32,000 nt of DNA from Tannockella kyphosi (GCF_021054785.1 NZ_CP088239.1:1530001-1562000), one strand, 5' to 3'; counted from the stretch's first letter, positions 2,043-17,308 are shown. Translations and numbers: made by a program. The notes: a model not told the origin generated them from the sequence alone.

Positions 2043-2117
2043 ACCCCTGTAGTTAAATGGATATAACAAGTCCCTCCTAAGGATTAGTTATCAGTTCGAT
2101 TCTGGTCGGGGGTGCCA
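2043..2117 (+). tRNA. tRNA-Arg: tRNA-Arg, anticodon CCT, with encoded CCA
   Basis: 75-nt cloverleaf folded by hand. Acceptor ACCCCTG/CGGGGGT (one G-U). D arm GTTA-AATGGATA-TAAC. Anticodon arm AGTCC-CTCCTAA-GGATT (U33, anticodon CCT, A37). T arm ATCAG-TTCGATT-CTGGT. Discriminator G, then CCA. Confidence 0.9.
2075..2109 (+). repeat. att-like direct repeat, copy A (3' part of tRNA-Arg from the anticodon onward)
   Basis: tcctaaggattagttatcagttcgattctggtcgg. The same 35-mer occurs at 4072-4106 and a diverged copy at 16919-16955. Confidence 0.85.
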
Positions 2118-2440
2118 AGAAAGCTAGTGTTTAAGACAATTTTTGGTCTTAACACTCGATTTATAGATTTTGAAAACAATAAAGTCAGCAAACTTTTTAT
2201 ATAAGTTTTACTGACTTTTTTGTTACTCTTTTTGGTTAAATCCCAGCTAACAAAGCGAGTTCGAATTTTCTATTTTGGCTTACAAAATTCCATTCCAGCT
2301 AACAGGATTTTATATCGTTGCTATATCTTGCTAACAAAGAGTCTGGCTACTAGTTCAAATTTTGTCCTGCAGTAAGTGTTTTAATCATTAACTCAGGCAA
2401 ATTAGGTGATTTATTAATAAGATTTAGCAACTCATTATTC
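2110..2440 (+). repeat. tRNA-distal arm, copy A; homologous with indels to 16956-17215
   Basis: Hand alignment shows long shared blocks, for example ttatagat, aagttttactgactt.tttgttactcttttt, tagttcaaattttgtc and taagtgttttaatca.taactcag. Copy A has roughly 12-nt and 55-60-nt insertions relative to copy C. Confidence 0.75.
2182..2222 (+). terminator. intrinsic terminator downstream of the tRNA
   Basis: Stem AAGTCAGCAAAC / GTTTTACTGACTT followed by TTTTTTGTT. It is preceded by a second hairpin, GTGTTTAAGAC / GTCTTAACAC, at 2127-2155. Confidence 0.6.
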
Positions 2441-2457
2441 TTATCAGTGAAATTAAA

Positions 2458-2486
2458 CAAAAGAAAGCTAGAAACAGTTTCTAGCC
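2458..2486 (-). terminator. intrinsic terminator of the 2512-3855 gene (T-runs on both sides)
   Basis: Stem GCTAGAAA / TTTCTAGC flanked by an A-run on the plus strand and TTTCTTTT on the minus strand. Confidence 0.65.
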
Positions 2487-2511
2487 TGTTTTTGTATTAT
2501 ATTATAAGCTA

Positions 2512-3855
2512 TTAAAAATATTTAACTTTCATTTTATTACTACTAATTTCCTTTTTTGTATAAACTATAAATTTTCCAGATCCTATTTTAGTAATAAGAT
2601 TTTTATCTAAAAGCCCCTTTAAATACTTGTTAGCCATTGTTTTTGATATACCAAGTAACTCTTCAACGTCTTTCCTAACTATGTTTTCACGCTTTTCAAT
2701 AAACGCAATAATTTCATGCTCCTCTTTTTTAAGAAGAACATTATCATTTATCACTTTTCTTTCGGTAATTTCATTTGTATTAAATAGCGTTATTTTAAAT
2801 GCATTATCACTTGTTTTTATCGATGGTTCTAGATTAGTATATTCATCATAACTTTCCATAATTTTTAAAATCCCTGTTCCATAAGCTTCGATTAGTTTTA
2901 ATCTATAAAAAACATTTGCCAAATTTTTATTTCTGAGTATCGATACCCCTAAAAGCATATCATCTTTAGTAATACCACGTAATAACCCTCCTACTGTAAC
3001 AATTTCGATACGGTTATCAAATATACTTATTAGTGTACTAGAACTAAATGAGTAGTCTCTATGAACTAATGCATTTAATAAAGCTTCTCTAATTGCTATT
3101 TGAGGATAATCATAGTTATCCACTCTTTTCAAACCATGTATTTCTGCTCTATTTCGATTATGTTTTCCGATAAACTCAAATGCATCATAAAGTTGCTTAA
3201 ATAATGAACCGGTAAATTCTATTCTATCTTTAAATATCGCTTTGCTTTCTCCTTCAAAGACAGCAGCTTTTATAGTATGAACACATTGCTCTGATAACAA
3301 TAAAGCAAGATTACTATAAAGTCCATCAATACCTAAAAGATTTAAAGATATCATTTGTTCTTTTAGAAATTTCAGATTTGCTTGATCAAATTCTTTTTTA
3401 CAAAAATCAAAAGTTAAATCTTGATTTATTGAACGTAGTTCTTCATATTCATCACTTGATGTCTCTTTAATCATTTTTATAATTAAAGTTTCACTTGCTG
3501 GAACCGATGACGCTCCCTGCCTTATAAATATCCCCTCAGGTCTTATTCCTTTAGAACCAATATAATACGGTCTCATTGTTCCTCTTTGCACAGCAATCAC
3601 AACGATATTTTTATTCTCTATCGTTTCTACTTGATAATCAATGAACATTGTTATATCAGGTTTTATTGTATCTCTAATCATATTGGTACATTTAAGAAAT
3701 ACATTATCAACATCATCTACCCCGAGTACAGATAAGTCATTACTGATTCCAATATAAATTTTACCTCCAGTTGTATTAGCAAATGCGATAACCGTTTTCT
3801 TAATTTCATCCGTATATTCTCTTTTATATTCTACGCTTTGATTTTCTAATTGCAT
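2512..3855 (-). CDS. AlbA_2 (Schlafen-type) / HATPase_c_4 / C-terminal winged-HTH protein; family often mis-annotated as RecG-like helicase or as a transcriptional regulator
   Basis: 447-aa ORF with a GGGAGGTG RBS. The N-terminus ESQSVEYK-type start (here ENQSVEYKREYTDEIKKTVIAFANTTGGKIYIGI) is the AlbA_2 signature. REALLNALVHRDYS...IEIVTVGGL...RNKNLANVFYRLKLIEAYGTGI is the HATPase_c_4 signature. The C-terminus EEHEIIAFIEKRENIVRKDVEELLGISKTMANKYLKGLLDKNLI is wHTH-like. Confidence 0.8.
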   Translation of the reverse strand: MQLENQSVEYKREYTDEIKKTVIAFANTTGGKIYIGISNDLSVLGVDDVDNVFLKCTNMIRDTIKPDITMFIDYQVETIENKNIVVIAVQRGTMRPYYIGSKGIRPEGIFIRQGASSVPASETLIIKMIKETSSDEYEELRSINQDLTFDFCKKEFDQANLKFLKEQMISLNLLGIDGLYSNLALLLSEQCVHTIKAAVFEGESKAIFKDRIEFTGSLFKQLYDAFEFIGKHNRNRAEIHGLKRVDNYDYPQIAIREALLNALVHRDYSFSSSTLISIFDNRIEIVTVGGLLRGITKDDMLLGVSILRNKNLANVFYRLKLIEAYGTGILKIMESYDEYTNLEPSIKTSDNAFKITLFNTNEITERKVINDNVLLKKEEHEIIAFIEKRENIVRKDVEELLGISKTMANKYLKGLLDKNLITKIGSGKFIVYTKKEISSNKMKVKYF

Positions 3856-3887
3856 AAATGCACCTCCCTTCTAATAGCATTCTATCA

Positions 3888-3934
3888 CTGTTCGAACACC
3901 AATACAAGTGTTCGAACACAAAACAAGTGTTCAA
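3888..3934. promoter_or_regulatory. three tandem operator-like sites built on the palindrome GTGTTCGAACAC, overlapping the putative promoter of 2512-3855
   Basis: ctGTTCGAACAC lies at 3888-3899, the perfect 12-bp palindrome GTGTTCGAACAC at 3908-3919, and the half-site caaGTGTTCaa at 3924-3934. The sites are spaced 19-20 bp apart. On the minus strand, TTGTAT-N17-TAGAAT encloses the first site. Confidence 0.5.
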
Positions 3935-4071
3935 TAAGAGCTATAATAATTTTTTTATTTATACGAGTTGTTTTTCAACGCTTAATCATCTGTATATTCC
4001 ATACATATTTGTCTTAACATTTATGCGCAAAATATACAATCTTAAGTTCGTCATAAATCTTCATACCGAAT

Positions 4072-4106
4072 TCCTAAGGATTAGTTATCAGTTCGATTCT
4101 GGTCGG
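4072..4106 (+). repeat. att-like direct repeat, copy B (displaced tRNA-Arg 3' half)
   Basis: 35/35 identical by eye to 2075-2109. After it the acceptor end is corrupted (ggagggggcca), followed by a shortened version of the tRNA terminator region (..aagattttcagcttttttgttt..). Confidence 0.85.
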
Positions 4107-4214
4107 AGGGGGCCAAAAAATAATGCTGCTAGCCTAAAGATTTTCAGCTTTTTTGTTTACACACAACTCTTATCTAAGATAAATATGTTTTTAATATATA
4201 TAAAACTTTGCTAA

Positions 4215-4729
4215 GAGGTAATTAACAAAGCAATAACATCACAAATTACTAGGAGTAAGTGGTAAATATGATTTATTTCATTACTTAAAACTTGCTGTGT
4301 TGCTACAATTTTTGATAAGATTTCTAATAGCTCAGGTCCATATCTTGCGTAGGAGTTTCTTTTACTTACTTTGATTCTTGCAAATAAGCTCCATTATAAT
4401 ATGCATCTACCAATCCGTGACATCGATTGCTCATGCCTTGTTTTTCTAATTGAGTTTTGAATACACTTCTTATGTACTGAAATTATCTGCCGTTATAATA
4501 TATATAGACTTGCTTTTATTGCATTCATTAATGATTCATTAGTAAGTTCTATATGATTCTTTTGACTTACTGATAAACTAATACCACTTCTGTCATATAA
4601 ATCTAAATACGAACTGATATAGACTTTCTCCTTGATCCCTGGATAAGCTATTTCCGTAATATCTGTACACCATACTTTATTAGGGTTTAATACTTCAAAT
4701 TCTCGATTAAGTGTGTTTTCATCTATAAT
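4215..4729 (-). mobile_element. IS3-family (IS150-like) transposase OrfB remnant, non-functional
   Basis: Minus-strand translation gives IIDENTLNREFEVLNPNKVWCTDITEIAYPGIKEKVYISSYLDLYDRSGISLSVSQKNHIELTNESLMNAIKA. After stops and frameshifts it continues ..SMSRIGRC..SLFARIK..ELLEILSKIV. These match the DDE/rve blocks of IS3 OrfB. There is no OrfA, no start codon and no recognisable terminal repeats. Confidence 0.7.
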
Positions 4730-4757
4730 TTATAGCTCCTTTCTTGTTTTAGGGTAT

Positions 4758-4784
4758 AAAAAAACACCTCCGAAGAAGGTGTTC
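4758..4784 (-). terminator. intrinsic terminator after the toxin pseudogene
   Basis: Minus strand ACACCT-tcttcgg-AGGTGT followed by TTTTTTT. Confidence 0.65.
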
Positions 4785-4801
4785 GATTAAATGTTCTACT
4801 A

Positions 4802-5108
4802 TTATTTTAATATAGTATCAAAATTTCTTTTACCATACAAAACACGAGCTATATTAACTTTGGTTGTTTCGTTATTTATTGTGTAAAAAATACAATAATT
4901 ATCGACAGGCGTCATTCGTAAATGTTGCCATTTAGAATTATCATATACCCGGTGTCTTTCGAGCAATGAATCAAGGGATAATATACCTTGCTATAATCGT
5001 TCTATCAGTTTAATTGCAGTATCTGGTTCTAGTAAACTATATGCGATATACCGATAAATTGCATATATATATCTTCTTTTGCATCCTTAGAAACATCTAC
5101 CGTATATA
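4802..5108 (-). pseudogene. ParE/RelE-family type II toxin, inactivated by a frameshift and an in-frame stop
   Basis: Hand translation gives ..YTVDVSKDAKEDIY, then a frameshift, then IYRYIAYSLLEPDTAIKLIERL, then a TAG, then QGILSLDSLLERHRVYDNSKWQHLRMTPVDNYCIFYTINNETTKVNIARVLYGKRNFDTILK and the stop. The C-terminal N-Y-x-I-F-Y..V-x-I-x-R-V-L-Y-G-x-R block is typical of ParE/RelE. It sits immediately downstream of the antitoxin. Confidence 0.7.
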
Positions 5109-5411
5109 TTATATCTCAAATTCCTTACGTAAATCTGAAAAAACTTTTTGTGCAGGTTCTACATCACCATTTTCAATACTAGTCAATCCTTTTTGAATTT
5201 CATTGATAAACTCAGCTTCACTCATTCTTCCCACATCTAAAGAGTGTGGTGGCATTTTTACTTCAAATGGTAAACCTCTTTGAAGAATAATCTGTTTATA
5301 AAACATATTTATTGCAGTTGATGCAGGTATTCCTAGTGTAGCTAAAATAGTTTCGGCTTGTTCTTTTACATCGGGTTCTATTCTTACATATAAATTTGCT
5401 GACTTTGCCAT
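5109..5411 (-). CDS. RelB/DinJ-family type II antitoxin (intact)
   Basis: MAKSANLYVRIEPDVKEQAETILATLGIPASTAINMFYKQIILQRGLPFEV matches the DinJ ribbon-helix-helix pattern. An AAGGAG RBS lies 8 nt before the ATG at 5411. The longer track ORF (to 5429) starts at a TTG without an RBS. Confidence 0.8.
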   Translation of the reverse strand: MAKSANLYVRIEPDVKEQAETILATLGIPASTAINMFYKQIILQRGLPFEVKMPPHSLDVGRMSEAEFINEIQKGLTSIENGDVEPAQKVFSDLRKEFEI

Positions 5412-5457
5412 ATAAAAAACTCCTTTCAAAGTTATATATATTTGTTATATGCAGTTG

Positions 5458-6294
5458 TCAGTACAATAGCAATACATCGATAATATCATCTACTGTGACA
5501 ATTCCTAGCATTGATCCACGACGATTCACTACCCCTAACACCTTTAAATCATACTTAGAAACTAAGTTAGATGCTTGTTCCTGATCTTCTAGTAACGAAG
5601 TTATCACTCATGATTTGCTGTATGATTTGGCCATTCCCTGCCAAGAAAATATCTCGAAGATCCGCAGTTCCAATCAAATGATTTTTGTCATCTATAACAA
5701 AAATTGTTTCAATAACTTCCGTTTCTGGACCGATTTTTTGATTTTTTGTAAGGATTCAGCAATAGACAAAGTTCCCTTAAGAGCAATGTATTCAGTGGTC
5801 ATAATACTTCCAACAGTATCATCTGGATATAATGGTAACTTTTGTAGTGTTTCCTTATCCTCTCTGCGAATAGACTTCAAAATTTCTTTTTGAACCCCAA
5901 CGTGCAATTCCCCTAAAACATCTGCAATGTCATCATTGGACATGTTTTGAAATAAGGAGAGAATATCTGATACTGATAATGCCGTGACAATCGCATTTTG
6001 TAGAGGTGCTTCTGCCTTCTCCAATATTTTTGCCATGTGAATACAGTCAATTTTTTTATAAAACGCCAATAAGGACCCCTTATCAAACTTCTCCAAAGCT
6101 ATTGCAATATCGATCAAATAAACGGAGTCGATGACCTGATGTAGAGACTGAACAGTACTAGTAAATAACAATTCCTGTATTTGATTTTCAGTACAAGACT
6201 CCCGCTCCTTTCGAGTTAAGACTTCGATTAAATTGGAAACTTCTTGTAATACAGAATCTGTGTTTTGATTTCCACAAGCATTCATTCGTTTCAC
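5458..6294 (-). pseudogene. mgtE: mgtE magnesium transporter remnant: MgtE_N plus CBS pair only, frameshifted, TM domain missing
   Basis: Track ORF 5692-6294 covers the MgtE N-domain and the start of the CBS region (YPDDTVGSIMTTEYIALKG). Two other frames continue it: ETIFVIDDKNHLIGTADLRDIFLAGNGQIIQQIMSDNFV, then LLEDQEQASNLVSKYDLKVLGVVNRRGSMLGIVTVDDIIDVL and a stop. The five-TM channel domain that normally follows DDIIDV is absent. Confidence 0.75.
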
Positions 6295-6316
6295 CTCTTG
6301 TTATCAATTACATCAG

Positions 6317-8158
6317 TTAGTGCGTATCATCCGTTACTTCTTCAAATTGACTATTATAAAGTTCCGCATAGAATCCTTTTTGGTTTAAAAGTTTCTCATG
6401 GCTACCGCTTTCTATAATATTACCGTCTTTCATTACTAATATAATATCTGCATTTTTAATTGTAGACAGTCTGTGTGCAATGATAAAAGATGTTTTTCCT
6501 TGAGACAACTTATCCATTGCCTTACCGATTAATAACTCTGTTCTTGTATCAACGGAACTTGTAGCCTCGTCTAAAATTATTAATTCTGATTTCTTAACCA
6601 TCGCACGTGCGATGGTAAGTAATTGCTTTTCTCCTGTTGATAAGGCAGCGTTACTCATAATGGTATGATATCCTTTTGGCATCGTTTTAATAGTATGATG
6701 AATTCCAACAGATTTACATGCCGCAATGATTTCATCTTCTGAAACATTTTGATTATATGCAATATTTTCCATAATAGTGCCATCAAACATCCATGTGTCT
6801 TGCAATACCATAGAAAACACATCGTGTAGACTCTCTCTCGTTATAGAGCGAATAGGAATGCCATCAATAGAAATCTCTCCGCTATTCACTTCATAAAAAC
6901 GCATAAGCAGATTTACCATAGTTGTTTTTCCTGCACCTGTAGGTCCTACAATCGCCACTTTCTCTCCAGCTTTAATTTCTGCATTAAAATCAGTAATAAT
7001 CATTTTATCTGGAGTGTATCCAAATGTTACATTTTTGAAGCTTACATCACCTTTAATATTTTTAATCTTTACTGCACCCTTTTCTTCTGGCGACAGTTCT
7101 TTCTCTTCAAGAAATTCAAATACACGCTCACTTGCTGCCGCTGCTGATTGCAATGTTGTCACCGATTGTGCTAGTGTTGCCAGTGGTTGTGTAAATAGAC
7201 GAATATACACCATGAATGCTACGATTACACCGAACGTAATACTTCCATTTATTACAAGCAATGCTCCAACTATACATACAACTACATATGAGAAATCACC
7301 TGTGAAATTCATAATAGGCATCATCATCCCAGATAAAAATTGCGCTTTCCATGCTGACTGATATAATTTCTCATTCTTTTTATGGAAATGCTTTTCTACA
7401 AACGTTTCTTTATTATAGGCTTTTATAATGGAGTGCCCAGTGTAAGTTTCTTCGACATGACCATTTAAATCACCAAGTCTCATTTGTTGTTGTATAAAGT
7501 GTTTCTGAGATTTTGCTATAATGATAGCCATAAAAGAAAATCCAAATATGGTTGAAAGCAAACCAGAAATCCCCATAATCCAGTTTGTATATAACATAAG
7601 TAATAGTGCTCCACTAAAATTCAAAACGCCACTAACAATTGAGGACATACTTTGATTTAAACTAGTACCTATTGTATCAATATCATTTACGAAGCGACTG
7701 AGTGTATCCCCATATGAAGTTCCATCAAAATATGCAAGTGGTAAACGATTTATTTTACTTGTCATTTCAGTACGTAATTTTTTACAAATTTTTTGAGAAA
7801 CAACTGCTAGAATACTTCCTTGAAGATATCCAAATACAAGGCTTAATCCATAGAGAATCGCCAAGAATGTACCAATACTTGCAACGGCCTCTAAATCCAC
7901 ACCTTCTGACATTCCTTCTAAAATCAGATTTGTAATCTTGGTCAATCTGCTTGGTCCCATAAGCGAGAAAACAGAAGATGTAATTGCTAAAACAATTGCA
8001 ATCGCTACGAAAACTGTATATCGTCCACAATATGCAAATAATTTCTTTAGACTTCCTGTAAAATCTTTTGCCTTATCGCCAGGTCTTCCTCCAGGAGGAC
8101 CTCCTGGTGGTCCTAAATTCACACCTGTATTTTGTGGTTTTGTCTCTTTGTTATGCAT
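6317..8158 (-). CDS. ABC exporter, fused permease/ATPase half-transporter (multidrug-type), second subunit
   Basis: 613 aa with a six-TM N-half. Walker A GPTGAGKTT, signature LSTGEKQ, Walker B LIILDEATS. The ATG overlaps the upstream stop (ATGCATAA). Confidence 0.9.
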   Translation of the reverse strand: MHNKETKPQNTGVNLGPPGGPPGGRPGDKAKDFTGSLKKLFAYCGRYTVFVAIAIVLAITSSVFSLMGPSRLTKITNLILEGMSEGVDLEAVASIGTFLAILYGLSLVFGYLQGSILAVVSQKICKKLRTEMTSKINRLPLAYFDGTSYGDTLSRFVNDIDTIGTSLNQSMSSIVSGVLNFSGALLLMLYTNWIMGISGLLSTIFGFSFMAIIIAKSQKHFIQQQMRLGDLNGHVEETYTGHSIIKAYNKETFVEKHFHKKNEKLYQSAWKAQFLSGMMMPIMNFTGDFSYVVVCIVGALLVINGSITFGVIVAFMVYIRLFTQPLATLAQSVTTLQSAAAASERVFEFLEEKELSPEEKGAVKIKNIKGDVSFKNVTFGYTPDKMIITDFNAEIKAGEKVAIVGPTGAGKTTMVNLLMRFYEVNSGEISIDGIPIRSITRESLHDVFSMVLQDTWMFDGTIMENIAYNQNVSEDEIIAACKSVGIHHTIKTMPKGYHTIMSNAALSTGEKQLLTIARAMVKKSELIILDEATSSVDTRTELLIGKAMDKLSQGKTSFIIAHRLSTIKNADIILVMKDGNIIESGSHEKLLNQKGFYAELYNSQFEEVTDDTH

Positions 8159-9905: not shown

Positions 9906-11277
9906 TTTGTTCTCCTAACTCATTAGTATGATGTTTTTCTACTACTTTGTCTTTGCTACGTAATATTTTGTAAATATTCATACACAAGATAATTGTTAAA
10001 ATAAGGGTCAAGACATCCGAAATTGGCTGTGCCCATAACAGGCCATCTATTCCCATGGTGTAATTCATAATCAAGATTAGTGGCAAGAAAATAATACCTT
10101 GACGGCACGCGTTTGCCACAAGCGAAGATTTTTCTGCACCCATTGCACCAAGCGCATTGGTCAATACGTTGAACACACCCAGTAAACAGCCCGTACTCAA
10201 TAGGATTTGAGAGAAATAATATGCGTAGGCAAATGCTTCTTCATCGGCTAAAAATGCACCTACAATCTGAGTGAGTCCTACATAACAAAAACCGGTCATG
10301 ACCACACCGAGGGCTAGACCAAACAGGAGTGAAAACTTCAGAATATCCAGAAATCTATCCCAGTCTTTAGCTCCTACACAAAAACCTAAAATTGGTTGAA
10401 CCCCTTGACCGAGACCAACACATAGCATCCAACTAATCAAAATAATCTTCAAGGAAACACCAACACCTGCAACAGCAAGTTCCCCATAGTCTGACATGAG
10501 TAGATTGATTACTATTTGCGATACTGTCGTAAATATGATACCAAGAGAGGCTGGTATACCAATAGCAAGCACATTTCTACATACTTTTTCTTTCACCGTA
10601 AAATCTTTGAGTGAGATGCTTAATTTACTTTTTCTTTTTACAAAGAACAAAATATAATACAGTCCAGAGCAAATATTACCGATAGTTGTTGCGATTGCCG
10701 CACCAGGTACATTCATTCCTAACACCAAAATAAAAATTGGATCCAGCACAATATTTACAATATTCCCAATCAACATACCCATCATTGCTTTTTGTACATT
10801 TCCCTCTGCTCTTAGAATATTGGAAAAGCAAGTTTGCAGTATGATAAACGGACCACTCATGGCAAGAATAAAAATATACTGACTAACCATTTGCACGGTA
10901 GTGTCACTGGCGGCACCAAGTTTTACTGCAATATCGTCTGCGAATACGCATAAAAGTATCGAAACAAATATACCGACAATCACACTTGCCCCAAAAGCAA
11001 ACGAAGCTACTTTATTAGCATACACTTTGTTATCAGCCCCCAACGCTCTAGAGATAACTGAAGCACCTCCCATGCCAAAAATGGTACCAATCGAAATAAA
11101 TACCAAGAAAACAGGGGTTGCTAGAGATACAGATGTAACTTGAAGTGCATCTCCCGTTTGACCCACAAAAAATAGGTCGGCCATATTGTAGATGAGAACC
11201 ATTATCATACCAAGAATTGCTGGGATTGTGTTTTTTAGCACATATTTTGGTACTGGTTCATTAGAATTTATGTTCAT
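9889..11277 (-). CDS. MATE-family efflux transporter
   Basis: 462-aa protein of 12-TM type with a typical MATE N-terminus (..PAILGMIMVLIYNMADLFFVGQTGDALQVTSVSLATPVF..). Confidence 0.88.
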   Translation of the reverse strand: MNINSNEPVPKYVLKNTIPAILGMIMVLIYNMADLFFVGQTGDALQVTSVSLATPVFLVFISIGTIFGMGGASVISRALGADNKVYANKVASFAFGASVIVGIFVSILLCVFADDIAVKLGAASDTTVQMVSQYIFILAMSGPFIILQTCFSNILRAEGNVQKAMMGMLIGNIVNIVLDPIFILVLGMNVPGAAIATTIGNICSGLYYILFFVKRKSKLSISLKDFTVKEKVCRNVLAIGIPASLGIIFTTVSQIVINLLMSDYGELAVAGVGVSLKIILISWMLCVGLGQGVQPILGFCVGAKDWDRFLDILKFSLLFGLALGVVMTGFCYVGLTQIVGAFLADEEAFAYAYYFSQILLSTGCLLGVFNVLTNALGAMGAEKSSLVANACRQGIIFLPLILIMNYTMGIDGLLWAQPISDVLTLILTIILCMNIYKILRSKDKVVEKHHTNELGEQNVQSI

Positions 11278-11297
11278 ATTATTTCCTTTCCTAACAG

Positions 11298-11714
11298 TTA
11301 ATCAATTATCTTATGCAATAATGCAAATAATGTTTCTGTTTCTTTCTCTGTAAACTTTTCAAATAGTTCTTCTTGAAGCTCATCCATGCATTCACCAGCA
11401 GCCTCTGTACAAGATTTACCACGTTCGGTTAACTCTAGTAATTTAATTCTTCTATCTGCTTCATTTGTAAATGTTCTCACAAATCCATGAGCTTCAAGAC
11501 GTGCAATCATGCTTGCTGCGCTAGACTGAGCAACTTTAGCAACTGCTTCTATCTCTTTGTAAGATGCTTGGAATTCTTCTTTATGTCGCAAATATGCTAG
11601 TATATGACCTTGTGTTATGGTAAGATCTAAATCTTTTAATTTCACATTCCCTTTTTTCTCTATCTTCTCACTAATTTGTCTAAAACAATACAAAAAATGT
11701 TTTTCATATCTCAT
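11298..11714 (-). CDS. MarR-family transcriptional regulator
   Basis: About 138 aa with a wHTH core (LTITQGHILAYL...YKEIEAVAKVAQSSAASMIARLEAHGFVRTFTNEADRRIKLLELTERG). The ATG at 11714 lies 8 nt after GGAGG. The track start at 11717 is a GTG. Confidence 0.88.
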   Translation of the reverse strand: MRYEKHFLYCFRQISEKIEKKGNVKLKDLDLTITQGHILAYLRHKEEFQASYKEIEAVAKVAQSSAASMIARLEAHGFVRTFTNEADRRIKLLELTERGKSCTEAAGECMDELQEELFEKFTEKETETLFALLHKIID

Positions 11715-11768
11715 CACTTTTTCCTCCTCTAATCATTCATTTTTTATCAATAAACGAATGATAGCACA

Positions 11769-11816: not shown

Positions 11817-11943
11817 TATAACAAAAGAAAAGCAATCGGAAAATAAGGCTGAATTTGCCTATCTCCTGATTGCTCCTTTTTCTTTTATCTAATATCAATA
11901 TGGTCATTTCTAAGATGCTTTATTATTAAAGTTCTATAGCTTT

Positions 11944-12642
11944 TTAAATAAGCTCCACAGCACCTTTTACACCAACTTTCGATATATCAATACATTGATT
12001 ATAATTGCTCATATCTATCCATTCTTGATCTGTATAATGTTCATAATACTCTGAACGTTTTTTGTCAACACGTTGAATATTATTCTTCATTTCAACTTCT
12101 GTTTTAACCCCTACATCTTCCGGTACTTTATCATTTTTCAAAAAAGATGAAGTGTAATCCGCTAACATATCTTGACAATTTGCATGTAAGAATTCTGTAA
12201 AATTCATCGGATACATTGTCAAAAATTCCACCTTACCAACTGGAAAGGATAACGGTTTATTAAGAGCAATACTCAAAAGAGAACCAGCACATACTATATG
12301 ATACGAAGGTGCATTTTCACAAAAATATTTAAGTGAAGTAATTGCACGACCACACTCCTGAACCTCATCAAAAACAATTAATGTATTGTTAGGTTTTATA
12401 GTTTTACCAACAAAAAGACCTAATTCAAATAAAATTCTTGTAGTATTAAAATCAATTTCAAAAATTGATTTTAAACTTTCATTTTCTTCAAAATTGATAT
12501 AAACCATATCATTATAATATTCTTTACCAAATTCTTTTAATATAAATGTTTTTCCACATTGGCGAACACCCTTAACAATTAAAGGTTTTTTATTTTCATT
12601 ATCTTTCCAATTTCGCAAAGATTCCATAATTGTTCTTTTCAT
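11944..12642 (-). CDS. chimeric ORF: AAA_14-type ATPase N-terminal half fused to the C-terminal tail of a cytidylate-kinase-like protein; probably a deletion product
   Basis: Residues 1-165 show the AAA_14 pattern (KPLIVKGVRQCGKTFILKEFG..TLIVFDEVQECGRAITSLKYFCENAPSYHIVCAGSLL..SFPVGKVEFLTMYPMNFTEF) without the DUF4143 half. The tail ..RVDKKRSEYYEHYTDQEWIDMSNYNQCIDISKVGVKGAVELI resembles the end of cytidylate-kinase-like family proteins. Confidence 0.6.
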   Translation of the reverse strand: MKRTIMESLRNWKDNENKKPLIVKGVRQCGKTFILKEFGKEYYNDMVYINFEENESLKSIFEIDFNTTRILFELGLFVGKTIKPNNTLIVFDEVQECGRAITSLKYFCENAPSYHIVCAGSLLSIALNKPLSFPVGKVEFLTMYPMNFTEFLHANCQDMLADYTSSFLKNDKVPEDVGVKTEVEMKNNIQRVDKKRSEYYEHYTDQEWIDMSNYNQCIDISKVGVKGAVELI

Positions 12643-12731
12643 AATAATCCTCCTAGCATTAGTATTGATTAAATTACTTTAATTACACTATTAAGATTAA
12701 TATTGTCAATAAACACTGCATTTTAAGTATG

Positions 12732-12757
12732 AAAAACGCAATAAAGTATTGCGTTTT
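12732..12757 (-). terminator. intrinsic terminator after the reductase gene
   Basis: AAACGCAAT-acttt-ATTGCGTTT with T/A runs on both sides. Confidence 0.65.
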
Positions 12758-12763
12758 AGATAC

Positions 12764-15052
12764 TTATAGTTTTCTTAACTCTTCATCACAAGCAATTAAT
12801 ACTTCTTCTGGTATTTCATCAGACATTTCTACCACTTTTGCAAGTGTCATTTTTTTAGCAAAACCAATCATAGGATGATTAATTAGAGCTTCTGTAAAAT
12901 GTTTAATTAAGATTTCTCTTGCTTTTTCATTTGCCATTAATGCTCCAAGTTTTGTATCCTTGCTAAATCTTGGTTTTATAGTATCATCACTTTGTTGTGA
13001 ATTTGATGTATTTGCGCTTACGCTTTCATCAGCTTCTATCACTGGTTTTACAAGTGATGAAGTGAATAATTTTTGTGATAAACTCACTGAATTAGTTTCA
13101 TCTGCTTTTAAGTAATAAACAGCTTCATAAGCACTACGCACTGCATCTGCAATTCTACCTGCCTTGTTAGCATCACCTAAGATATATAAATTATTATCAA
13201 ATTGATATTTAAATGAATCTATTAGTTTACTGTCTCCTCGTACCCCTAGCGATAGAACTACTGCTTGTGCGGCTATTTCCATTTGTCCATCATCACCATT
13301 TACAATAATTTTATCTTCTTTTATTTCACAAAGTTCAGTAGATGTTTTAACTTCTACTTGTAGTTCTTTTAGATGTTTTAGCACATCTACAACATTTGGT
13401 GATAAATCAGTACCGATACCACTACCACTTCCTGGAGCTACATCAAATTCTTTTTCTATCACAGTAACTTTATTTCCTTTTGTCGCAAGGAATTCAGCAA
13501 CTTCTAATCCTGTTAATCCTGAACCTACTACAATAAATTCTTTATTTGTTATATTGAAATCATTTGTTAGTACATCATCTACCAAATATACATTTGGAAG
13601 ATTAACACCACGGAAAGGTGGTTTGATTGGACTACCACCAGTTGCAACAAAAACAGCAGCAGGTGCCATTTTAGCAACATCAGTTGCACTTACTTCACTA
13701 TTTAGTCGTACATCAACTTTTAATTTTTTCATTTCCAATGCCATACTATCGATAAGCCAACATAATTTCTCTTTATGAGGAGGTATTGATGCCATGAATA
13801 CTTGACCCCCAAGTTTATCAGCTTTTTCAAATAAAACAGGTTTGAAATTTCTTTGCGCCAGGTTAATAGCTGCTTGCATACCAGCTGGACCACCACCAAT
13901 AACAACAACACGTTTTCCATTACCATCTACTGGCATTTTCCCATATACAAGTTCAAATGAACAACGAGGATTAACAGCACATTTTATTGTTCTAGCACTA
14001 CCAAGTTCTTCGGCACAATATAGACAAGATATACAAGGTCTAATATCTTCTGCTAGTCCTTTTTTTGACTTATTGCACCACTCAGGATCCGCTAATTGAG
14101 CTCTTCCTAGCGCTACAAAGTCTAGATTATCTTCTACTAATAACTTTTCTGCAAAAGCAGGTTTTCTAATAACATCACAAGCAATAACTGGAATGGATAC
14201 AGCTTCTTTGATTGTTTTCCCTAAATGACGTTTCCATCCTTGATCATAAGAGATTGGTTCTGTTGATTCATTTGGTGCAGCATATCCACCCGCACTAACA
14301 TTTATTGCATTAAAACCAACTTTTTCTAAATGCTTTGCAATTTCAACAGCATCATCCAAAGTCATCCCACCTTCAAAAAAGTCATCCCCATTAATTCGAA
14401 TACAAACAGGGAAACTATCTCCACAAGCCATACGAATACCACGAATAATTTCTGTTGGGAATTGCATACGTTTTAGAAAGCTCCCACCATATTTATCAGT
14501 TCTTTGATTTGAGTATTCACACATAAATTGTTGAATAAGATACCCGTGTGCTCCATGTAATTCAACTCCATCAATACCAGCCATCTCACACATCTTAGCT
14601 GACATAACAAATTTACCTACAATTTCAGCAACTTCTTCTTCTGTAAGCTCTCTAGGTACTTCCGAGTTTGCTAAAGATTTGATAGCAGAAGGTCCAACAA
14701 TTTGTTCCCCAGAAAACATTTCTTTTCCTTCTCTACCAGGGTGATGCAATTGACAAAATATTTTTGCTCCTTGACGATGAACAGCATTTGCAAGACGTTC
14801 AAGACCAGGAATCATCCCAGGAGCTGTTGCATTTAATTGGACAGGATGACCAACACCAGATCCATCTGCAACTCTTGTAATCTCTGTAATAATCAAACCA
14901 CAACCACCAGCAGCACGTTCTTCATAATAACGTACAATTCGATCTGTGACTTCACCATTGATAGAGTTCAAGCCTGTTTCCATTGCCGGCATCACTACTC
15001 TATTTCTAATCTCTAAGTCACCTATTTTACCACTACTAAATAATTTCTTCAT
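12764..15052 (-). CDS. NADH:flavin oxidoreductase of the OYE-FMN / 4Fe-4S / FAD-NAD(P) type (2,4-dienoyl-CoA reductase / enoate reductase / BaiH-BaiCD family), with a C-terminal extension of about 110 aa
   Basis: OYE-like N-half (RNRVVMPAM..HGAHGYLIQQF). Cys cluster CISCLYC..x11..C. GGGPAGMQAA and VVGSGLTGLEVAEFLA dinucleotide folds. GGGAGGG lies 7 nt before the ATG at 15052. The track start at 15073 has no RBS. Confidence 0.85.
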   Translation of the reverse strand: MKKLFSSGKIGDLEIRNRVVMPAMETGLNSINGEVTDRIVRYYEERAAGGCGLIITEITRVADGSGVGHPVQLNATAPGMIPGLERLANAVHRQGAKIFCQLHHPGREGKEMFSGEQIVGPSAIKSLANSEVPRELTEEEVAEIVGKFVMSAKMCEMAGIDGVELHGAHGYLIQQFMCEYSNQRTDKYGGSFLKRMQFPTEIIRGIRMACGDSFPVCIRINGDDFFEGGMTLDDAVEIAKHLEKVGFNAINVSAGGYAAPNESTEPISYDQGWKRHLGKTIKEAVSIPVIACDVIRKPAFAEKLLVEDNLDFVALGRAQLADPEWCNKSKKGLAEDIRPCISCLYCAEELGSARTIKCAVNPRCSFELVYGKMPVDGNGKRVVVIGGGPAGMQAAINLAQRNFKPVLFEKADKLGGQVFMASIPPHKEKLCWLIDSMALEMKKLKVDVRLNSEVSATDVAKMAPAAVFVATGGSPIKPPFRGVNLPNVYLVDDVLTNDFNITNKEFIVVGSGLTGLEVAEFLATKGNKVTVIEKEFDVAPGSGSGIGTDLSPNVVDVLKHLKELQVEVKTSTELCEIKEDKIIVNGDDGQMEIAAQAVVLSLGVRGDSKLIDSFKYQFDNNLYILGDANKAGRIADAVRSAYEAVYYLKADETNSVSLSQKLFTSSLVKPVIEADESVSANTSNSQQSDDTIKPRFSKDTKLGALMANEKAREILIKHFTEALINHPMIGFAKKMTLAKVVEMSDEIPEEVLIACDEELRKL

Positions 15053-15493
15053 ATATTTACCCTCCCTATACATGTATATATGATATTATCTTTGGCCTAA
15101 TATTTATCCATTAAAAGTATATCATGTATAGTCTATACCGTAAATATAATGTACTGAAATACATCGAAAGATACAATACTATTTCTATCATCTGTTAACG
15201 AAATTTCATGTATATAACATCCTCGACTTTACTAATGATAATATCCTATTTTGGCCTGTATCAAGACTGGGGGACAAGTGATTAATAAGCAATCACCTTT
15301 GTTTCAAAGAAACAAAAAGGAATTGACTCTTTAAAAGAGTACTGGCAGTTATGACATTGCTATCTACGCTAACTTCTAAAAAGTTTGTCCAATTCACAAG
15401 ACTGCTGGTTACTTGCCTAGAGGTACTTTCATACAACTGAGCAACTTCTCTTGTTTTAATGCCATAATTTTCCTCCTAATTTAATTTTGGGCA

Positions 15494-15530
15494 TAAGAAA
15501 AGCACCTATCAAGGTTGGTTAATAAGTGCT
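15494..15530 (-). terminator. possible terminator downstream of 15598-15882
   Basis: Minus-strand stem AGCACTTAT / ATAGGTGCT with a 12-nt loop, then TTTCTT. Confidence 0.4.
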
Positions 15531-15597
15531 ATTACTTAATTAGAATTACTTTATTTATCTTTTTATTTTTGATACTGGTGTAAAGATATTGCTCATT

Positions 15598-15882
15598 TTA
15601 TTCAAAAGCAATTTCTTTTACCGGAATCCCCAAGATAGAATATTCAACATACTTTATTCCCGGAATAGGTTCTTCTGGCATAAAATTACCTTTAATTTCT
15701 ATTTGATAACCTAATCCATAATATGTTCCTGACCCACCATCATCAGCTGTTACAGGTATTGTAAATATAGGTTTTTCTGCACTATAAACTCTAAAATAAT
15801 CAAATATTCCAGTTCTTATCGATAAAATCAATAGAAAACCTAACATTACTCCTACAATTTTAATGGTTTTCTTCGTATTCAT
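15598..15882 (-). CDS. small hypothetical protein with an N-terminal membrane anchor or signal (94 aa)
   Basis: MNTKKTIKIVGVMLGFLLILSI.. A GGAG lies 7 nt before the ATG at 15882. The longer track ORF begins at a GTG. Confidence 0.55.
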   Translation of the reverse strand: MNTKKTIKIVGVMLGFLLILSIRTGIFDYFRVYSAEKPIFTIPVTADDGGSGTYYGLGYQIEIKGNFMPEEPIPGIKYVEYSILGIPVKEIAFE

Positions 15883-16045
15883 ATCATATCTCCATCCATT
15901 ATATAAATTGCACGGTATTCCCACCTTGTTTTCGTTATCTTTAGATTATCAAGATAATCTACGCACATAAAAGTACATATAAATGTTAACATTTATATGT
16001 GTTACATGAATTGCAACACACCCTTTTTTAGTAACAGTTTCAAAT

Positions 16046-16276
16046 TCAATTTATAAATAATTCACTTTCATTTTCCATCAAATCTTCTACTAAATATTTT
16101 GCATCTAAATTTTCTATGCCACACTCATTATTCGATATTTGCTTTGATAATTTGCTGTTGTAATAAACATCCATCGCTTTTCGAATATCTATGTTCTTTT
16201 TTTTTGCAAGAAAAGATATTATATCTTGCTCCAAATTTTGTTTATATATAGAATCTAAAGCTATTTTATTTGTCAT
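16046..16276 (-). CDS. small hypothetical protein (76 aa), third gene of a DUF3791/DUF3990-type module
   Basis: Complete ORF with a GTGAGGT RBS. Its position and size fit the second small partner of DUF3791-DUF3990-DUF3791 trios. The sequence assignment is tentative. Confidence 0.55.
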   Translation of the reverse strand: MTNKIALDSIYKQNLEQDIISFLAKKKNIDIRKAMDVYYNSKLSKQISNNECGIENLDAKYLVEDLMENESELFIN

Positions 16277-16446
16277 ATGATTTTACCTCACTTGATTTTT
16301 TAAATACTAATATTTTATGCACTTTTTTCTTCGACCACAAACCTCTAAAATACATATCAACCGTTTTAAAAACATCATCATCAGCGACATTACCAATGAT
16401 AATATCATATTTTTGGTTACTGCGTACTACCATGATAAACTATCAT
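16266..16446 (-). pseudogene. DUF3990-family gene remnant with a large internal deletion, frameshift and stop
   Basis: An ATGA overlap with the upstream stop gives MIVYHGSTQ then a stop, which is the typical DUF3990 start. One frame over it reads KYDIIIGNVADDDVFKTVDMYFRGLWSKKKVHKILVFKKSSEVKSYDK, the C-terminal D-I-I-x-G-x-V-A-D-D block. Only about 60 codons remain of a family that is normally much longer. Confidence 0.6.
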
Positions 16447-16661
16447 ATACGAACACCTTTCTCCCTTACAAATTCAGTTATATCTTCTACTAAATATTCT
16501 TTCCCTAATGTGTGTAAAGTATCATAACAAGGAATCACATAATCATCAAGAATTCCAGTAGTATTTAATATTTTATATACAGATACAGGTGTCATATTCC
16601 ATGCATCAGCTAAACTATATAAAATAAATATTGAAAATTGTAATTCCTTTTTTTCTGACAT
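16443..16661 (-). CDS. DUF3791-domain protein (72 aa)
   Basis: ..FSIFILYSLADAWNMTPVSVYKILNTTGILDDYVIPCYDTLHTLGKEYLVEDITEFVREKGV matches the DUF3791 pattern. The ATG at 16661 lies 8 nt after GGAAGGGGG. The track start is a TTG. Confidence 0.7.
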   Translation of the reverse strand: MSEKKELQFSIFILYSLADAWNMTPVSVYKILNTTGILDDYVIPCYDTLHTLGKEYLVEDITEFVREKGVRI

Positions 16662-16918
16662 ATGCAATACCCCCTTCCTTTTTTTAAAGTATACACTAAA
16701 AGTAAATGATTTAAAAGTTAACCTGAGTTAAATTTATATTTTATAGTAGTTTTCGAACTGACAATAAATCTCCAACCCTTTTGTTCTAACAATTGTAAAC
16801 AAGAGCCTAGAGGATCACAAATGTTGCTTGGAGAATGATGAGAGTCTAACCTATATAATCCCGAGCGTTTCTCAGTTGAACACTATTGTAGAAAACGTAA
16901 CACTTTGTGCACTAAACC

Positions 16919-16955
16919 CCTAAGGATTAGTTATCAGTTCGATTTTGGTTGGGGT
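16919..16955 (+). repeat. att-like direct repeat, copy C (diverged displaced tRNA-Arg 3' half)
   Basis: cctaaggattagttatcagttcgatt is identical to 2076-2101. The next part, ttggttggggt, compares with ctggtcgggggt in the tRNA. Confidence 0.8.
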
Positions 16956-17215
16956 TAAGAAAAGCTAATGTTTATCCAATTTTTGATATTAACATTCAAT
17001 TTATAGATATTCAAAAACAACAAAGTTTTAGATAAGTTTTACTGACTTCTTTGTTACTCTTTTTGATGAAATCCCTTCTAACAAGATTCTATATCCTGCT
17101 AACAATAAAATTATCTAGTAGTTCAAATTTTGTCTTTCTTTAAGTGTTTTAATCAATAACTCAGCCAATTTAGGTAATTGATGAATAAGATCTAGCAATT
17201 CTTCTAACACCACTT
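16956..17215 (+). repeat. tRNA-distal arm, copy C (homologous to 2110-2440)
   Basis: See the copy A entry. The left arm of the second terminator hairpin is missing here. Confidence 0.75.
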
Positions 17216-17308
17216 TCGATTGGTGTATATTGCACATAATAAGCATTTTCTAAACGTTGAGCATTTTATTTACTTTATTTTAACCAAAAAGTATAATTTC
17301 ATTTTAGT

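What the first reader, a model, noticed from the sequence alone, without database searches (positions are those of the whole stretch)
2043..17246. Tandem island array at tRNA-Arg(CCT): three direct copies of the tRNA 3' half and no recombinase
The 35-mer tcctaaggattagttatcagttcgattctggtcgg starts exactly at the anticodon of the intact tRNA (2075-2109). It recurs in direct orientation at 4072-4106 (35/35 identical by eye). A more diverged copy lies at 16919-16955, with the first 26 nt identical.

Each copy is followed by a version of the same downstream tRNA-terminator region. It is complete after copy A, shortened after copy B, and lacks one hairpin arm after copy C. So only the copy attached to the tRNA body looks functional.

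Duplication of a tRNA 3' half is the established footprint of integrase-mediated insertion into tRNA genes, here of the anticodon-loop sublocation type. Three copies imply at least two successive insertions (accretion). Segment 1 is 2110-4071, about 2 kb with one gene. Segment 2 is 4107-16918, about 12.8 kb.

No ORF in the six-frame track, in either segment or elsewhere in the window, looks like a tyrosine or serine recombinase, an excisionase, or a phage or conjugation gene. The segments therefore look like non-autonomous (CIME-like, mobilised in trans) or fossilised islands. The best candidates for new biology in this window are the cargo of these segments.
Basis: partly seen in the sequence, partly recalled or inferred. 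Interest (0 to 1): 0.75.

Follow-up and report, generated by a model that had tools for sequence, protein, structure and literature searches.

The report
Decayed gene islands at a tRNA gene
Two old stretches of imported DNA sit one after the other behind an arginine tRNA gene of the fish-gut bacterium Tannockella kyphosi; they have lost the enzyme that inserted them and several of their genes are broken, which is a well-known and ordinary pattern.

Summary
An intact tRNA-Arg(CCT) gene lies at 2043-2117. Its 3' half recurs in direct orientation at 4072-4106 (35/35) and at 16918-16952 (32/35); shuffles give none. All copies begin in the anticodon loop, a canonical crossover site for tyrosine integrases.

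No tyrosine or serine recombinase, excisionase, phage or conjugation gene turned up in any large ORF or in six-frame scans of the gene-poor stretches next to the copies.

- Copies A and C share about 360/285 nt that also cover the tRNA's downstream region (about 85% identical).
- A degraded IS3-type DDE transposase lies about 110 nt from copy B.
- At least five cargo genes are pseudogenes: IS3 transposase, parE, mgtE, a PDC-S01 ATPase and DUF3990.

The source is Tannockella kyphosi. Junction C is the same in metagenome contigs from eight sequencing runs and junction B in two, so the array looks fixed.

The cargo is ordinary: efflux pumps, a flavin reductase, toxin-antitoxin and defence remnants, and a Schlafen-type regulator.

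Verdict: fossil, integrase-less tandem islands, a new instance of a known kind, of low interest. I could not retrieve an empty site or any evidence of excision.

The parts
2043..2117 (+). Intact tRNA-Arg(CCT) gene. Copy A of the repeat is 2075-2109, and the anticodon CCT is at 2076-2078.
   Evidence: ARAGORN; Rfam tRNA at 57.4 bits; pattern search.
2110..2433 (+). D': the region downstream of the regenerated tRNA. It holds two hairpins, the second a U-tailed terminator, and three direct GCTAACA motifs (2246-2336). Positions 2350-2433 carry the last 28 codons of a small ORF on the minus strand. The whole region is homologous to 16953-17201.
   Evidence: Alignments; repeat families D1 and D4; RNA fold z = -3.4; peptide coordinates; motif search.
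2465..2487 (.). Hairpin matching the terminator consensus on both strands, between D' and the Schlafen-type gene.
   Evidence: Terminator scan, matches on both strands.
2512..3855 (-). The only gene of segment 1. It encodes a Schlafen AlbA_2 domain, a HATPase_c_4 domain and a C-terminal winged helix ('putative DNA-binding/RNA-binding domain protein').
   Evidence: Pfam; PHROGs phrog_12156. More than 8000 homologues; an identical 437-aa version occurs in Logan contigs.
3890..3935 (.). Repeated GTGTTCGAACAC palindromes upstream of the Schlafen-type gene. They are conserved in an 80%-identical homologue from another genome and are probably operator sites (inference).
   Evidence: Sequence; alignment with L044.
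4072..4119 (+). Copy B, a displaced tRNA 3' half. It is 35/35 identical to copy A, followed by a damaged acceptor/CCA end (1 insertion and 2 substitutions).
   Evidence: (family D2).
4214..4708 (-). Degraded IS3-family DDE transposase (OrfB) pseudogene with in-frame stops and internal loss. The rve core lies at about 4510-4683.
   Evidence: Six-frame translation; Pfam rve, E = 1.8e-7, on the stop-masked frame; coordinates.
4805..5068 (-). ParE toxin pseudogene, interrupted by stop codons.
   Evidence: Pfam ParE_toxin, E = 3.1e-7, on the stop-masked frame; coordinates.
5109..5429 (-). RelB/DinJ-type antitoxin gene, intact.
   Evidence: Pfam RelB, E = 4.6e-10; phrog_2737.
5467..6294 (-). Remnant of mgtE. 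The ORF holding only the MgtE_N domain is 5692-6294, and an out-of-frame stretch read by eye as a CBS remnant is at 5467-5574. The membrane domain is missing.
   Evidence: Pfam MgtE_N only; six-frame reading; coordinates.
6317..11717 (-). Efflux module: two ABC exporter half-transporters (6317-8158 and 8151-9905), a MATE transporter (9889-11277) and a MarR regulator (11298-11717). GC3 is higher than in the flanks.
   Evidence: Pfam. GC3 is 0.20-0.33 here against 0.13-0.24 in flank genes.
11944..12642 (-). Truncated AAA_14 ATPase, a PDC-S01 candidate defence protein. Only profile positions 3-179 of 439 are present.
   Evidence: Pfam AAA_14; PADLOC PDC-S01, E = 2.2e-75, N-terminal half only.
12764..15073 (-). 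Old-yellow-enzyme domain fused to a pyridine-nucleotide-disulphide oxidoreductase domain (2,4-dienoyl-CoA/enoate reductase type).
   Evidence: Pfam Oxidored_FMN, E = 1.9e-69, plus Pyr_redox_2.
15598..15924 (-). 108-aa ORF of unknown function with a hydrophobic N-terminal stretch seen by eye. In two wild contigs, L053 and L055 (and probably a third, L059, whose contig ends early), it is replaced by a 136/165-aa ORF plus a NUDIX gene.
   Evidence: No Pfam, PADLOC or PHROGs match; contig comparison.
16046..16667 (-). Remnant of candidate defence system PDC-M13. M13C is at 16046-16276, a broken DUF3990 (M13B) at about 16290-16439, and DUF3791 (M13A) at 16443-16667.
   Evidence: PADLOC; Pfam DUF3791 and a DUF3990 fragment covering profile positions 83-136 of 152.
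16918..16965 (+). Copy C, the oldest displaced tRNA 3' half. It is 32/35 identical to copy A, its acceptor end has decayed, and it has no CCA.
   Evidence: (family D2). Conserved apart from 3 SNPs in 8 wild contigs.
16953..17246 (.). D: probably the original region downstream of the tRNA, with degraded hairpins. It holds a 43-aa ORF on the minus strand (17115-17246). Homology to D' ends at 17201.
   Evidence: Alignment; RNA fold z = +0.35; ORF coordinates.

Best explanation
Two genomic islands were inserted one after the other into the anticodon loop of the tRNA-Arg(CCT) gene of Tannockella kyphosi by tyrosine-integrase-type site-specific recombination.

Proposed history (inferred):
- Each insertion supplied a new 3' half for the tRNA and pushed the previous 3' half downstream.
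- Copy C, with the region D that follows it, is the original tRNA end and its flank.
- Copy B arrived with the older island, segment 2 (4107-16917).
- Copy A, with D', arrived with the younger island, segment 1 (2110-4071).
- Segment 1's att-proximal arm is a copy of a tRNA-Arg downstream region, about 85% identical to the resident one. It was probably picked up by imprecise excision from a related host.

What the sequence shows:
- The integrase genes are absent. Possibly IS3-mediated deletion next to copy B removed one (inference).
- Many cargo genes have decayed.
- The array appears in every wild contig recovered.

I read these as fossil islands rather than working mobile elements. The recombination mechanism, the order of events and the capture of the flank are all inferred, not shown.
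For: - Three direct copies of the tRNA 3' half, against none in shuffles. All begin within 3 nt of U33 in the anticodon loop.
- An unrelated Clostridiales genome (L019) has a displaced fragment beginning at the same position, next to RepA_N/DUF6017 and ParA genes of an integrated element.
- Anticodon-centred attP sites are the commonest class in Islander, 2083 of 3919 islands. A regenerated tDNA plus a displaced fragment is the accepted island signature (PMC4383910).
- The copies decay with distance: 100%, 90% and 79% over 48 nt. A functional terminator follows only copy A.
- No recombinase, phage or conjugation domain was found in the ORFs and six-frame stretches scanned.
- At least five pseudogenes lie in segment 2.
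- GC3 is raised in 5.7-11.3 kb.
- The closest homologue of the segment-1 gene for which longer context could be read (80% identical, L044) sits in a quite different context, so that gene moves between genomes.
- The right-hand interior of segment 2 varies between wild strains (NUDIX or HEPN/NTase replacements), while junction C is constant.
- Decay of an integrated element into an integrase-less remnant, followed by accretion of another element at the same site, is a described route (PMC5704250).
Against: - No integrase gene or remnant was found, so the recombinase class is inferred only from the site.
- No empty site, single-island intermediate or circular junction could be retrieved.
- Most island genes, including the Schlafen-type gene, the flavin reductase and the toxin-antitoxin genes, have host-like GC3.
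- The A-C repeat is about ten times longer than a normal att identity block. Explaining it needs an extra assumption, capture of a flank.
- The sequences to the left of copies B and C show no obvious inverted-repeat core site matching the anticodon stem.
- The second apparent displaced fragment from another genome (L039) may be a decayed whole tRNA rather than an att fragment.
Confidence: 0.7

Rival explanations
1. The segments are still mobile as CIMEs (cis-mobilizable elements). They keep usable attL/attR sites and are excised, and perhaps transferred, by an integrase encoded elsewhere in the genome or by an incoming element.
For: - Copies A and B are 35/35 identical, including the whole anticodon-loop core.
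- No integration or transfer genes lie inside the segments.
- Metagenome contigs L061 and L062 join the tRNA 5' half to other, non-tRNA sequences at 2081 and 2083. This suggests that recombination at this loop still goes on in the community.
- CIMEs and their mobilisation in trans are documented (PMC5704250).
Against: - Copy C and its surroundings are decayed.
- Junction B is the same in 2 sequencing runs and junction C in 8.
- No ICE or IME remnants such as a relaxase, coupling protein or T4SS genes were found, so derivation from such an element is not shown.
- The left sides of copies B and C lack a recognisable core-type inverted repeat.
- The L061 and L062 tails may belong to other species, because 32-38 nt of the tRNA 5' half is identical across many Clostridia and the contigs come from k=31 assemblies.
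Confidence: 0.12
2. The outer pair (A with D', and C with D) was made by homologous recombination rather than by an integrase. A circular DNA carrying a related copy of 'tRNA 3' half plus downstream region' would have integrated by a Campbell-type single crossover. Alternatively a local duplication of that block occurred and the copies then diverged.
For: - The A-C repeat spans 358 against 283 nt at about 85% identity. It runs far beyond the tRNA, to one shared end point at 2433/17201.
- Both copies carry the same truncated 28-codon ORF end.
- No integrase is present.
Against: - The left end of the homology block falls exactly at the anticodon loop, as it does for copy B and for L019. Homologous recombination or random duplication would not predict that.
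- Copy B shares only the tRNA part.
- 15% divergence is unfavourable for RecA-mediated crossover. Within-species divergence is only about 1%.
- The incoming circle would still have had to carry an att-type tRNA fragment.
Confidence: 0.13
3. The repeats are chance matches or copies of a dispersed repeat family unrelated to any insertion.
For: None found.
Against: - Zero matches in 100 shuffles.
- No further copies in the window, even at low stringency.
- In the genome collection (one genome per species), 39 of 41 exact matches to the 26-mer are intact tRNA-Arg(CCT) genes.
Confidence: 0.01

Closest known systems
tRNA-gene genomic islands with an anticodon-centred attachment site (Islander class A; Williams 2002 sublocation scheme, cited in PMC4383910)
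   Same: An intact tRNA gene lies at one end and direct displaced 3' fragments lie downstream. The fragments start in the anticodon loop and run to the 3' end of the tRNA. The cargo is unrelated to the flanks.
   Different: No integrase gene is present in either segment, and Islander's filters require one. The outermost repeat also includes about 250-320 nt of the tRNA's downstream flank.
CIME and tandem accretion arrays of streptococcal ICEs/IMEs (ICESt1-related elements; the tRNA-Lys arrays of S. agalactiae), as reviewed in PMC5704250
   Same: Integrase-less segments are bounded by att repeats and lie in tandem at the 3' part of a gene. The proposed route is the same: integration, decay, then a second integration at the same target.
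   Different: No conjugation or mobilisation remnants were found, so an ICE or IME origin is not shown. No partner element with an integrase lies in the array. Excision was not tested. The host is an Erysipelotrichales bacterium from a fish gut.
Aberrant excision with capture of host flank (lambda gal/bio-type specialised transducing phages; Campbell's view of how attP-tRNA identity arises). Cited from my own knowledge.
   Same: The element-side arm next to the regenerated tRNA (D') is a diverged copy of the host-side flank (D). That is the expected result if an element excised imprecisely and took the attR flank with it.
   Different: No phage genes are present. The donor, the element and the event are all inferred. 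The captured block is only about 360 nt.
Defence-island remnants: PADLOC candidate systems PDC-S01 and PDC-M13, and ParE/RelB toxin-antitoxin modules
   Same: The cargo includes members of these families. The content of the island's right-hand part turns over between strains.
   Different: The PDC-S01 ATPase is truncated, the DUF3990 component of PDC-M13 is broken and parE is a pseudogene. The systems are probably inactive.

Membership tests
tRNA-integrated genomic island (Islander definition) | An intact target tRNA gene at one end. | tested here: met
   tRNA-Arg(CCT) at 2043-2117.
tRNA-integrated genomic island (Islander definition) | A displaced fragment of the same tRNA gene, in direct orientation, at the other end. 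| tested here: met
   Copies at 4072-4119 and 16918-16965 on the + strand.
tRNA-integrated genomic island (Islander definition) | The fragment boundary lies at a canonical crossover sublocation (anticodon loop, T loop, or T/acceptor junction). | tested here: met
   Boundaries at 2075 for copy B and 2073-2076 for copy C, within the anticodon loop. L019 has the same boundary.
tRNA-integrated genomic island (Islander definition) | An integrase gene inside the island. | tested here: not met
   No Phage_integrase, Resolvase or Recombinase match in the ORFs scanned or in the six-frame scans of the gene-poor stretches. Only an rve fragment was found.
tRNA-integrated genomic island (Islander definition) | The island is absent from some related genomes (an empty site exists). 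| tested here: inconclusive
   Only occupied junctions were recovered from Logan contigs. The nearest other species is not syntenic here. The scan of genome contigs for the 26-mer tRNA fragment returned no locus sharing flanks with the window, and the metagenome scans for a D motif and for the L062 junction returned nothing.
CIME (cis-mobilizable element) | Retains attL and attR. | tested here: met
   Copies A and B are identical over 35 nt. Copy C is 32/35 identical. Whether the sites are functional is unknown.
CIME (cis-mobilizable element) | [quoted passage not shown] | tested here: met
   None found in 2110-16917.
CIME (cis-mobilizable element) | Derived from an ICE or IME by deletion. | tested here: inconclusive
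   No relaxase, T4SS, replication or mobilisation remnants were detected, so the ancestry is unknown.
CIME (cis-mobilizable element) | Excised or mobilised by a cognate integrase supplied in trans. | not testable with these tools
   This needs the whole genome and experiments. Only a 32-kb window was available.
Prophage remnant | Phage structural, lysis or lysogeny genes, or their remnants. | tested here: not met
   PHROGs matches are limited to generic families: a Schlafen-type 'helicase', RelB, MarR and the oxidoreductase. The amidase_3 gene at 23365-24171 lies outside the array.
IS3 composite transposon | Two IS copies or inverted-repeat ends bracketing the cargo. | tested here: not met
   There is a single degraded rve fragment. 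The repeat search found no second copy.

The most novel reading that the evidence does not exclude
The anticodon loop of tRNA-Arg(CCT) may be a currently active recombination hot spot in wild T. kyphosi, served by an integrase encoded elsewhere.
- The 2-kb Schlafen-type cassette, bounded by two identical 35-nt sites, would then be a minimal one-gene CIME that still moves.
- Some insertions (the L061 and L062 alleles) would not rebuild the tRNA. One of them instead brings another tRNA gene about 60 nt downstream of the junction.
Probability: 0.1. Interest if true: 0.5.

Novelty: new member of a known kind. Interest (0 to 1): 0.2.

Why it matters
This result mainly tidies annotation. It marks 2110-16917 of this T. 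kyphosi locus as horizontally acquired and largely decayed DNA. It also flags several ORFs as pseudogenes: an IS3 transposase, parE, mgtE, a PDC-S01 ATPase and DUF3990.

It adds an example from Erysipelotrichales (fish gut) to the long list of tRNA-linked tandem islands. The 360-nt repeat that includes the tRNA's own downstream flank is a modest but clean illustration of how an element may acquire host sequence next to its attachment site.

Nothing here opens a long-standing question. The cargo families are ordinary.

Tried and rejected
- **Exact-protein look-ups.** The 132-aa ORF, BacA, the 447-aa Schlafen-type ORF, RelB (100 aa), the AAA_14 protein and MarR (138 aa) all returned nothing. The look-up fails on a single residue difference or a different start codon. 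Context was obtained only through homologue ids (P0002-4, P0122-3) and the 72-aa DUF3791 protein.
- **Viral contigs.** Scans for the 26-mer tRNA fragment, both variant junction tails and the tRNA-like start in L062 found nothing.
- **Metagenome contigs.** Scans for a conserved D/D' motif and for the L062 junction found nothing. The D motif is present in all Logan contigs, so the JGI set probably lacks this organism.
- **Genome contigs.** The 26-mer scan returned 41 loci, and none shares flanks with the window. Integrase-like ORFs near those tRNAs, picked out by a sequence-motif search, were rare; the only one close to a tRNA (L016) lies just beyond a neighbouring tRNA-Ser.
- **L039.** I first counted it as a second displaced fragment. 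The alignment shows acceptor-like sequence upstream, so it may be a decayed whole tRNA. I dropped it as evidence.
- **Plasmid and phage BLAST of segment 1.** It gave only tRNA matches and distant Schlafen-type gene matches, with no tRNA nearby in those records.
- **The 28-aa shared ORF end in D/D'.** I considered that it might be an integrase C-terminus. It matches no Pfam family, and in D it is part of a 43-aa ORF, so I rejected the idea.
- **Extension of the array to the right of copy C.** No further tRNA fragment was found at low stringency, and the composition there is host-like.

Full report
**1. The observation**

ARAGORN finds one tRNA in the window, tRNA-Arg(CCT), at 2043-2117 on the + strand. 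Rfam agrees. The 35-mer that starts at U33 of this tRNA (2075-2109) recurs exactly at 4072-4106. It recurs with three mismatches at 16918-16952. None of 100 dinucleotide-preserving shuffles gave a match.

All three copies are direct. Copy B continues through a slightly damaged acceptor/CCA end, 48 nt at 90% identity. Copy C is 79% identical over the same 48 nt and has no CCA (family D2). A low-stringency search found no further copy in the window.

The RNA downstream of each copy behaves differently:
- After copy A there are two strong hairpins, the second with a U tail (z = -3.4).
- After copy B there is no stable structure.
- After copy C the fold is degraded (z = +0.35). A 10-nt deletion has removed one hairpin arm.

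The sequence after copy B is not a convincing version of the same terminator.

**2.

- *A long outer repeat.* Copies A and C are the left ends of a much longer homologous block, 2076-2433 against 16919-17201. The block is about 85% identical in aligned columns, and copy A's version carries about 75 nt extra (families D1 and D4). It covers the tRNA's downstream spacer and the last 28 codons of a small minus-strand ORF. In D this ORF is a 43-aa reading frame at 17115-17246. In D' only its end survives, at 2350-2433.
- *A transposase remnant.* About 110 nt to the right of copy B lies a degraded IS3-family DDE transposase gene (Pfam rve, E = 1.8e-7, on the stop-masked frame; about 4214-4708, minus strand). 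A ParE toxin pseudogene follows, beside an intact RelB antitoxin gene.
- *More decay in segment 2.* mgtE is reduced to its N domain plus an out-of-frame stretch that I read by eye as a CBS remnant. The AAA_14/PDC-S01 ATPase keeps only profile positions 3-179 of 439. The DUF3990 component of a PDC-M13-like trio is a fragment.

**3. Gene content**

- Segment 1 (2110-4071) holds one gene. It encodes a Schlafen AlbA_2 domain, a HATPase_c_4 domain and a winged helix. This is a very common family, with more than 8000 hits.
- Segment 2 (4107-16917) holds the remnants listed above, two ABC exporters, a MATE pump, a MarR regulator, an OYE/flavin reductase fusion and small ORFs.
- To the left of the tRNA lie BacA/UppP and a 132-aa orphan ORF behind a SAM riboswitch.
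- To the right lie a 1539-aa beta-helix protein gene, a GH43-like gene, an amidase gene, a GGDEF gene and an opp operon.

No tyrosine or serine recombinase, excisionase, phage or conjugation domain was found. I searched the large ORFs, and six-frame translations of 4100-5120 and 15050-16930 plus one frame of 2100-2520. Many short overlapping ORFs and 3856-4071 were not scanned.

Composition gives only modest support for foreign origin. GC3 is 0.21-0.34 for the four genes mgtE_N to MATE, against 0.13-0.24 for flank genes. The Schlafen-type gene, the reductase and the small genes look host-like.

**4. Source and population**

The 132-aa ORF is 100% identical to a protein of Tannockella kyphosi, a member of the Coprobacillaceae (Erysipelotrichales) that papers link to the hindgut of Kyphosus fish.

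Logan assemblies of about a dozen sequencing runs contain DNA 98.7-99.5% identical to the window:
- Contigs for segment 1 end inside the 35-mer at both sides. That is expected for k=31 assemblies breaking at a repeat.
- Junction B is identical in two runs.
- Contigs from eight runs cross junction C, and those long enough continue from the beta-helix gene through D and copy C into DUF3791. They differ from the window by only three SNPs around the copy.
- To the left of DUF3791 the interior varies. In L053 and L055 a NUDIX gene and another ORF replace the 108-aa ORF (L059 probably matches, but its contig ends early). One contig (L056) has a HEPN/nucleotidyltransferase pair there.

The array therefore appears in every contig recovered, and its content still turns over. 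My look-ups could only retrieve occupied sites, so an empty-site allele is not excluded. The nearest other species (BacA 90% identical) has a sulfatase gene where the 132-aa ORF and the tRNA would be, so it is not informative.

**5. Is the site a real attachment site?**

In the genome collection (one genome per species) the 26-mer shared by all three copies occurs in 41 genomes, all Clostridia-type MAGs. Of these, 39 are intact tRNA-Arg(CCT) genes.

One of the others, L019, is a clean displaced fragment. It begins at the position equivalent to 2074, is followed by its own terminator-like hairpin and T run, and is preceded by RepA_N/DUF6017 and ParA genes. That is the typical end of an integrated plasmid-like or conjugative element. 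The second, L039, may be a decayed whole tRNA, so I do not count it.

Two Logan contigs, L061 and L062, carry the T. kyphosi left flank and diverge from the window after 2081 and 2083, running into non-tRNA sequence. Combined with the left boundaries of copies B and C and of L019, this would define a 7-nt common core, TCCTAAG, in the anticodon loop. That is the size of a tyrosine-recombinase overlap region (my own knowledge). However, 32-38 nt of the tRNA 5' half is identical in many Clostridia. These k=31 contigs may therefore be chimeric between species, and I treat them as a lead only.

The literature supports the framework:
- A regenerated tDNA plus a displaced fragment marks island ends, and anticodon-centred sites are the largest class (PMC4383910).
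- Decay of an integrated element to an integrase-less CIME, followed by accretion of another element at the same site, is a described route (PMC5704250).

**6. Best explanation**

I propose two successive site-specific insertions at the anticodon loop.
- Copy C with D is the original tRNA end and flank.
- Copy B came with the older island, segment 2.
- Copy A with D' came with the younger island, segment 1.

The gradient of decay (A intact, B 90%, C 79%) fits this order, as does the presence of a working terminator only after copy A.

D' is about 15% diverged from D, while strains differ by only about 1%. D' is therefore more likely a copy of the equivalent flank from a related host than a recent local duplication. 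It would have been carried in by segment 1 after an imprecise excision. This is inference.

The integrases have been lost. The IS3 remnant beside copy B suggests one way this could have happened (inference).

Rivals:
- The segments are still mobilisable in trans (0.12).
- The outer repeat arose by homologous, Campbell-type recombination or by duplication (0.13).
- The repeats are chance matches (refuted).

**7. Comparison, novelty and verdict**

The locus works like a tRNA-linked island array, or CIME accretion. It fails the formal Islander criterion of an integrase in each island, and an ICE or IME ancestry is not shown. It is best filed as fossil, integrase-less islands.

This is a new instance of a known kind, in an organism where none has been described in the papers I could search. 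The cargo is ordinary. Interest is about 0.2.

The most novel reading still open is an active hot spot with a one-gene CIME and insertions that do not restore the tRNA. I give it a probability of about 0.1.

Noticed in passing
window 1832-1940 (-), with the ORF at 1391-1789 (-): A SAM (S-box) riboswitch (Rfam, 46.8 bits against a gathering score of 44.4) sits directly upstream of a 132-aa ORF. That ORF has no Pfam, PADLOC or PHROGs match, and the search of the 5.8-billion-sequence protein database returned a single hit, from T. kyphosi itself. It is an orphan gene that appears to be under SAM control.
   Followed up: partly
L062 1-110 and L061 1-60 (Logan contigs; reverse complement of the window left flank): Two metagenome contigs join the tRNA-Arg 5' half to non-tRNA sequence just after the anticodon loop. 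In L062 the join forms a perfect 9-bp hairpin around the loop (AACAAGTCC CTCCTAA GGACTTGTT), and another tRNA gene starts about 60 nt further on. These may be alternative insertions that do not rebuild the tRNA, or they may be cross-species assembly chimeras.
   Followed up: partly
window 3890-3935: Repeated GTGTTCGAACAC palindromes lie between the Schlafen-type gene and copy B. They are conserved upstream of an 80%-identical homologue in an unrelated context (L044). They are probably operators for autoregulation through the protein's C-terminal winged helix.
   Followed up: partly
window 2246-2336: Three direct GCTAACA motifs lie within 91 nt of D', spaced 52 and 32 nt apart, and one copy lies in D at 17098. 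They could be protein-binding (arm-type) sites or simply an internal tandem duplication. The window-wide count is not significant (8 found, 4.2 expected), but the clustering is local.
   Followed up: no
window 15598-15879, compared with L053 8325-9247, L055 and L056: Strain-level gene replacement occurs inside the island. The 108-aa ORF of the window is replaced by a 136/165-aa ORF plus a NUDIX hydrolase in L053 and L055 (probably also L059, whose contig ends early). Another contig (L056) has a HEPN/nucleotidyltransferase pair next to DUF3791. Two contigs also end at 15410-15480, which hints at a further branch point in the assembly graph.
   Followed up: partly
window 11768-11817: A near-perfect 25+25-nt palindrome (92% complementary, no spacer) lies upstream of the MarR gene and the efflux operon. 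It is a likely MarR operator (inverted repeat I2).
   Followed up: no
window 17352-21971 (-): A 1539-aa protein gives only a weak beta-helix match in Pfam and has an acidic, repetitive C-terminal region. The wild-strain version is 1546 aa. It was not characterised further ([family D6], 10, 52).
   Followed up: no
L016 (CANQJW010000026.1), about 500-1700 nt downstream of tRNA-Arg(CCT): In this rabbit-gut Clostridia MAG an ORF of at least 391 aa, which runs to the end of the retrieved stretch and carries an HDLRHS motif, lies just after a tRNA-Ser(CGA) that follows tRNA-Arg(CCT). It is probably a tyrosine integrase of an island in tRNA-Ser rather than in tRNA-Arg.
   Followed up: no
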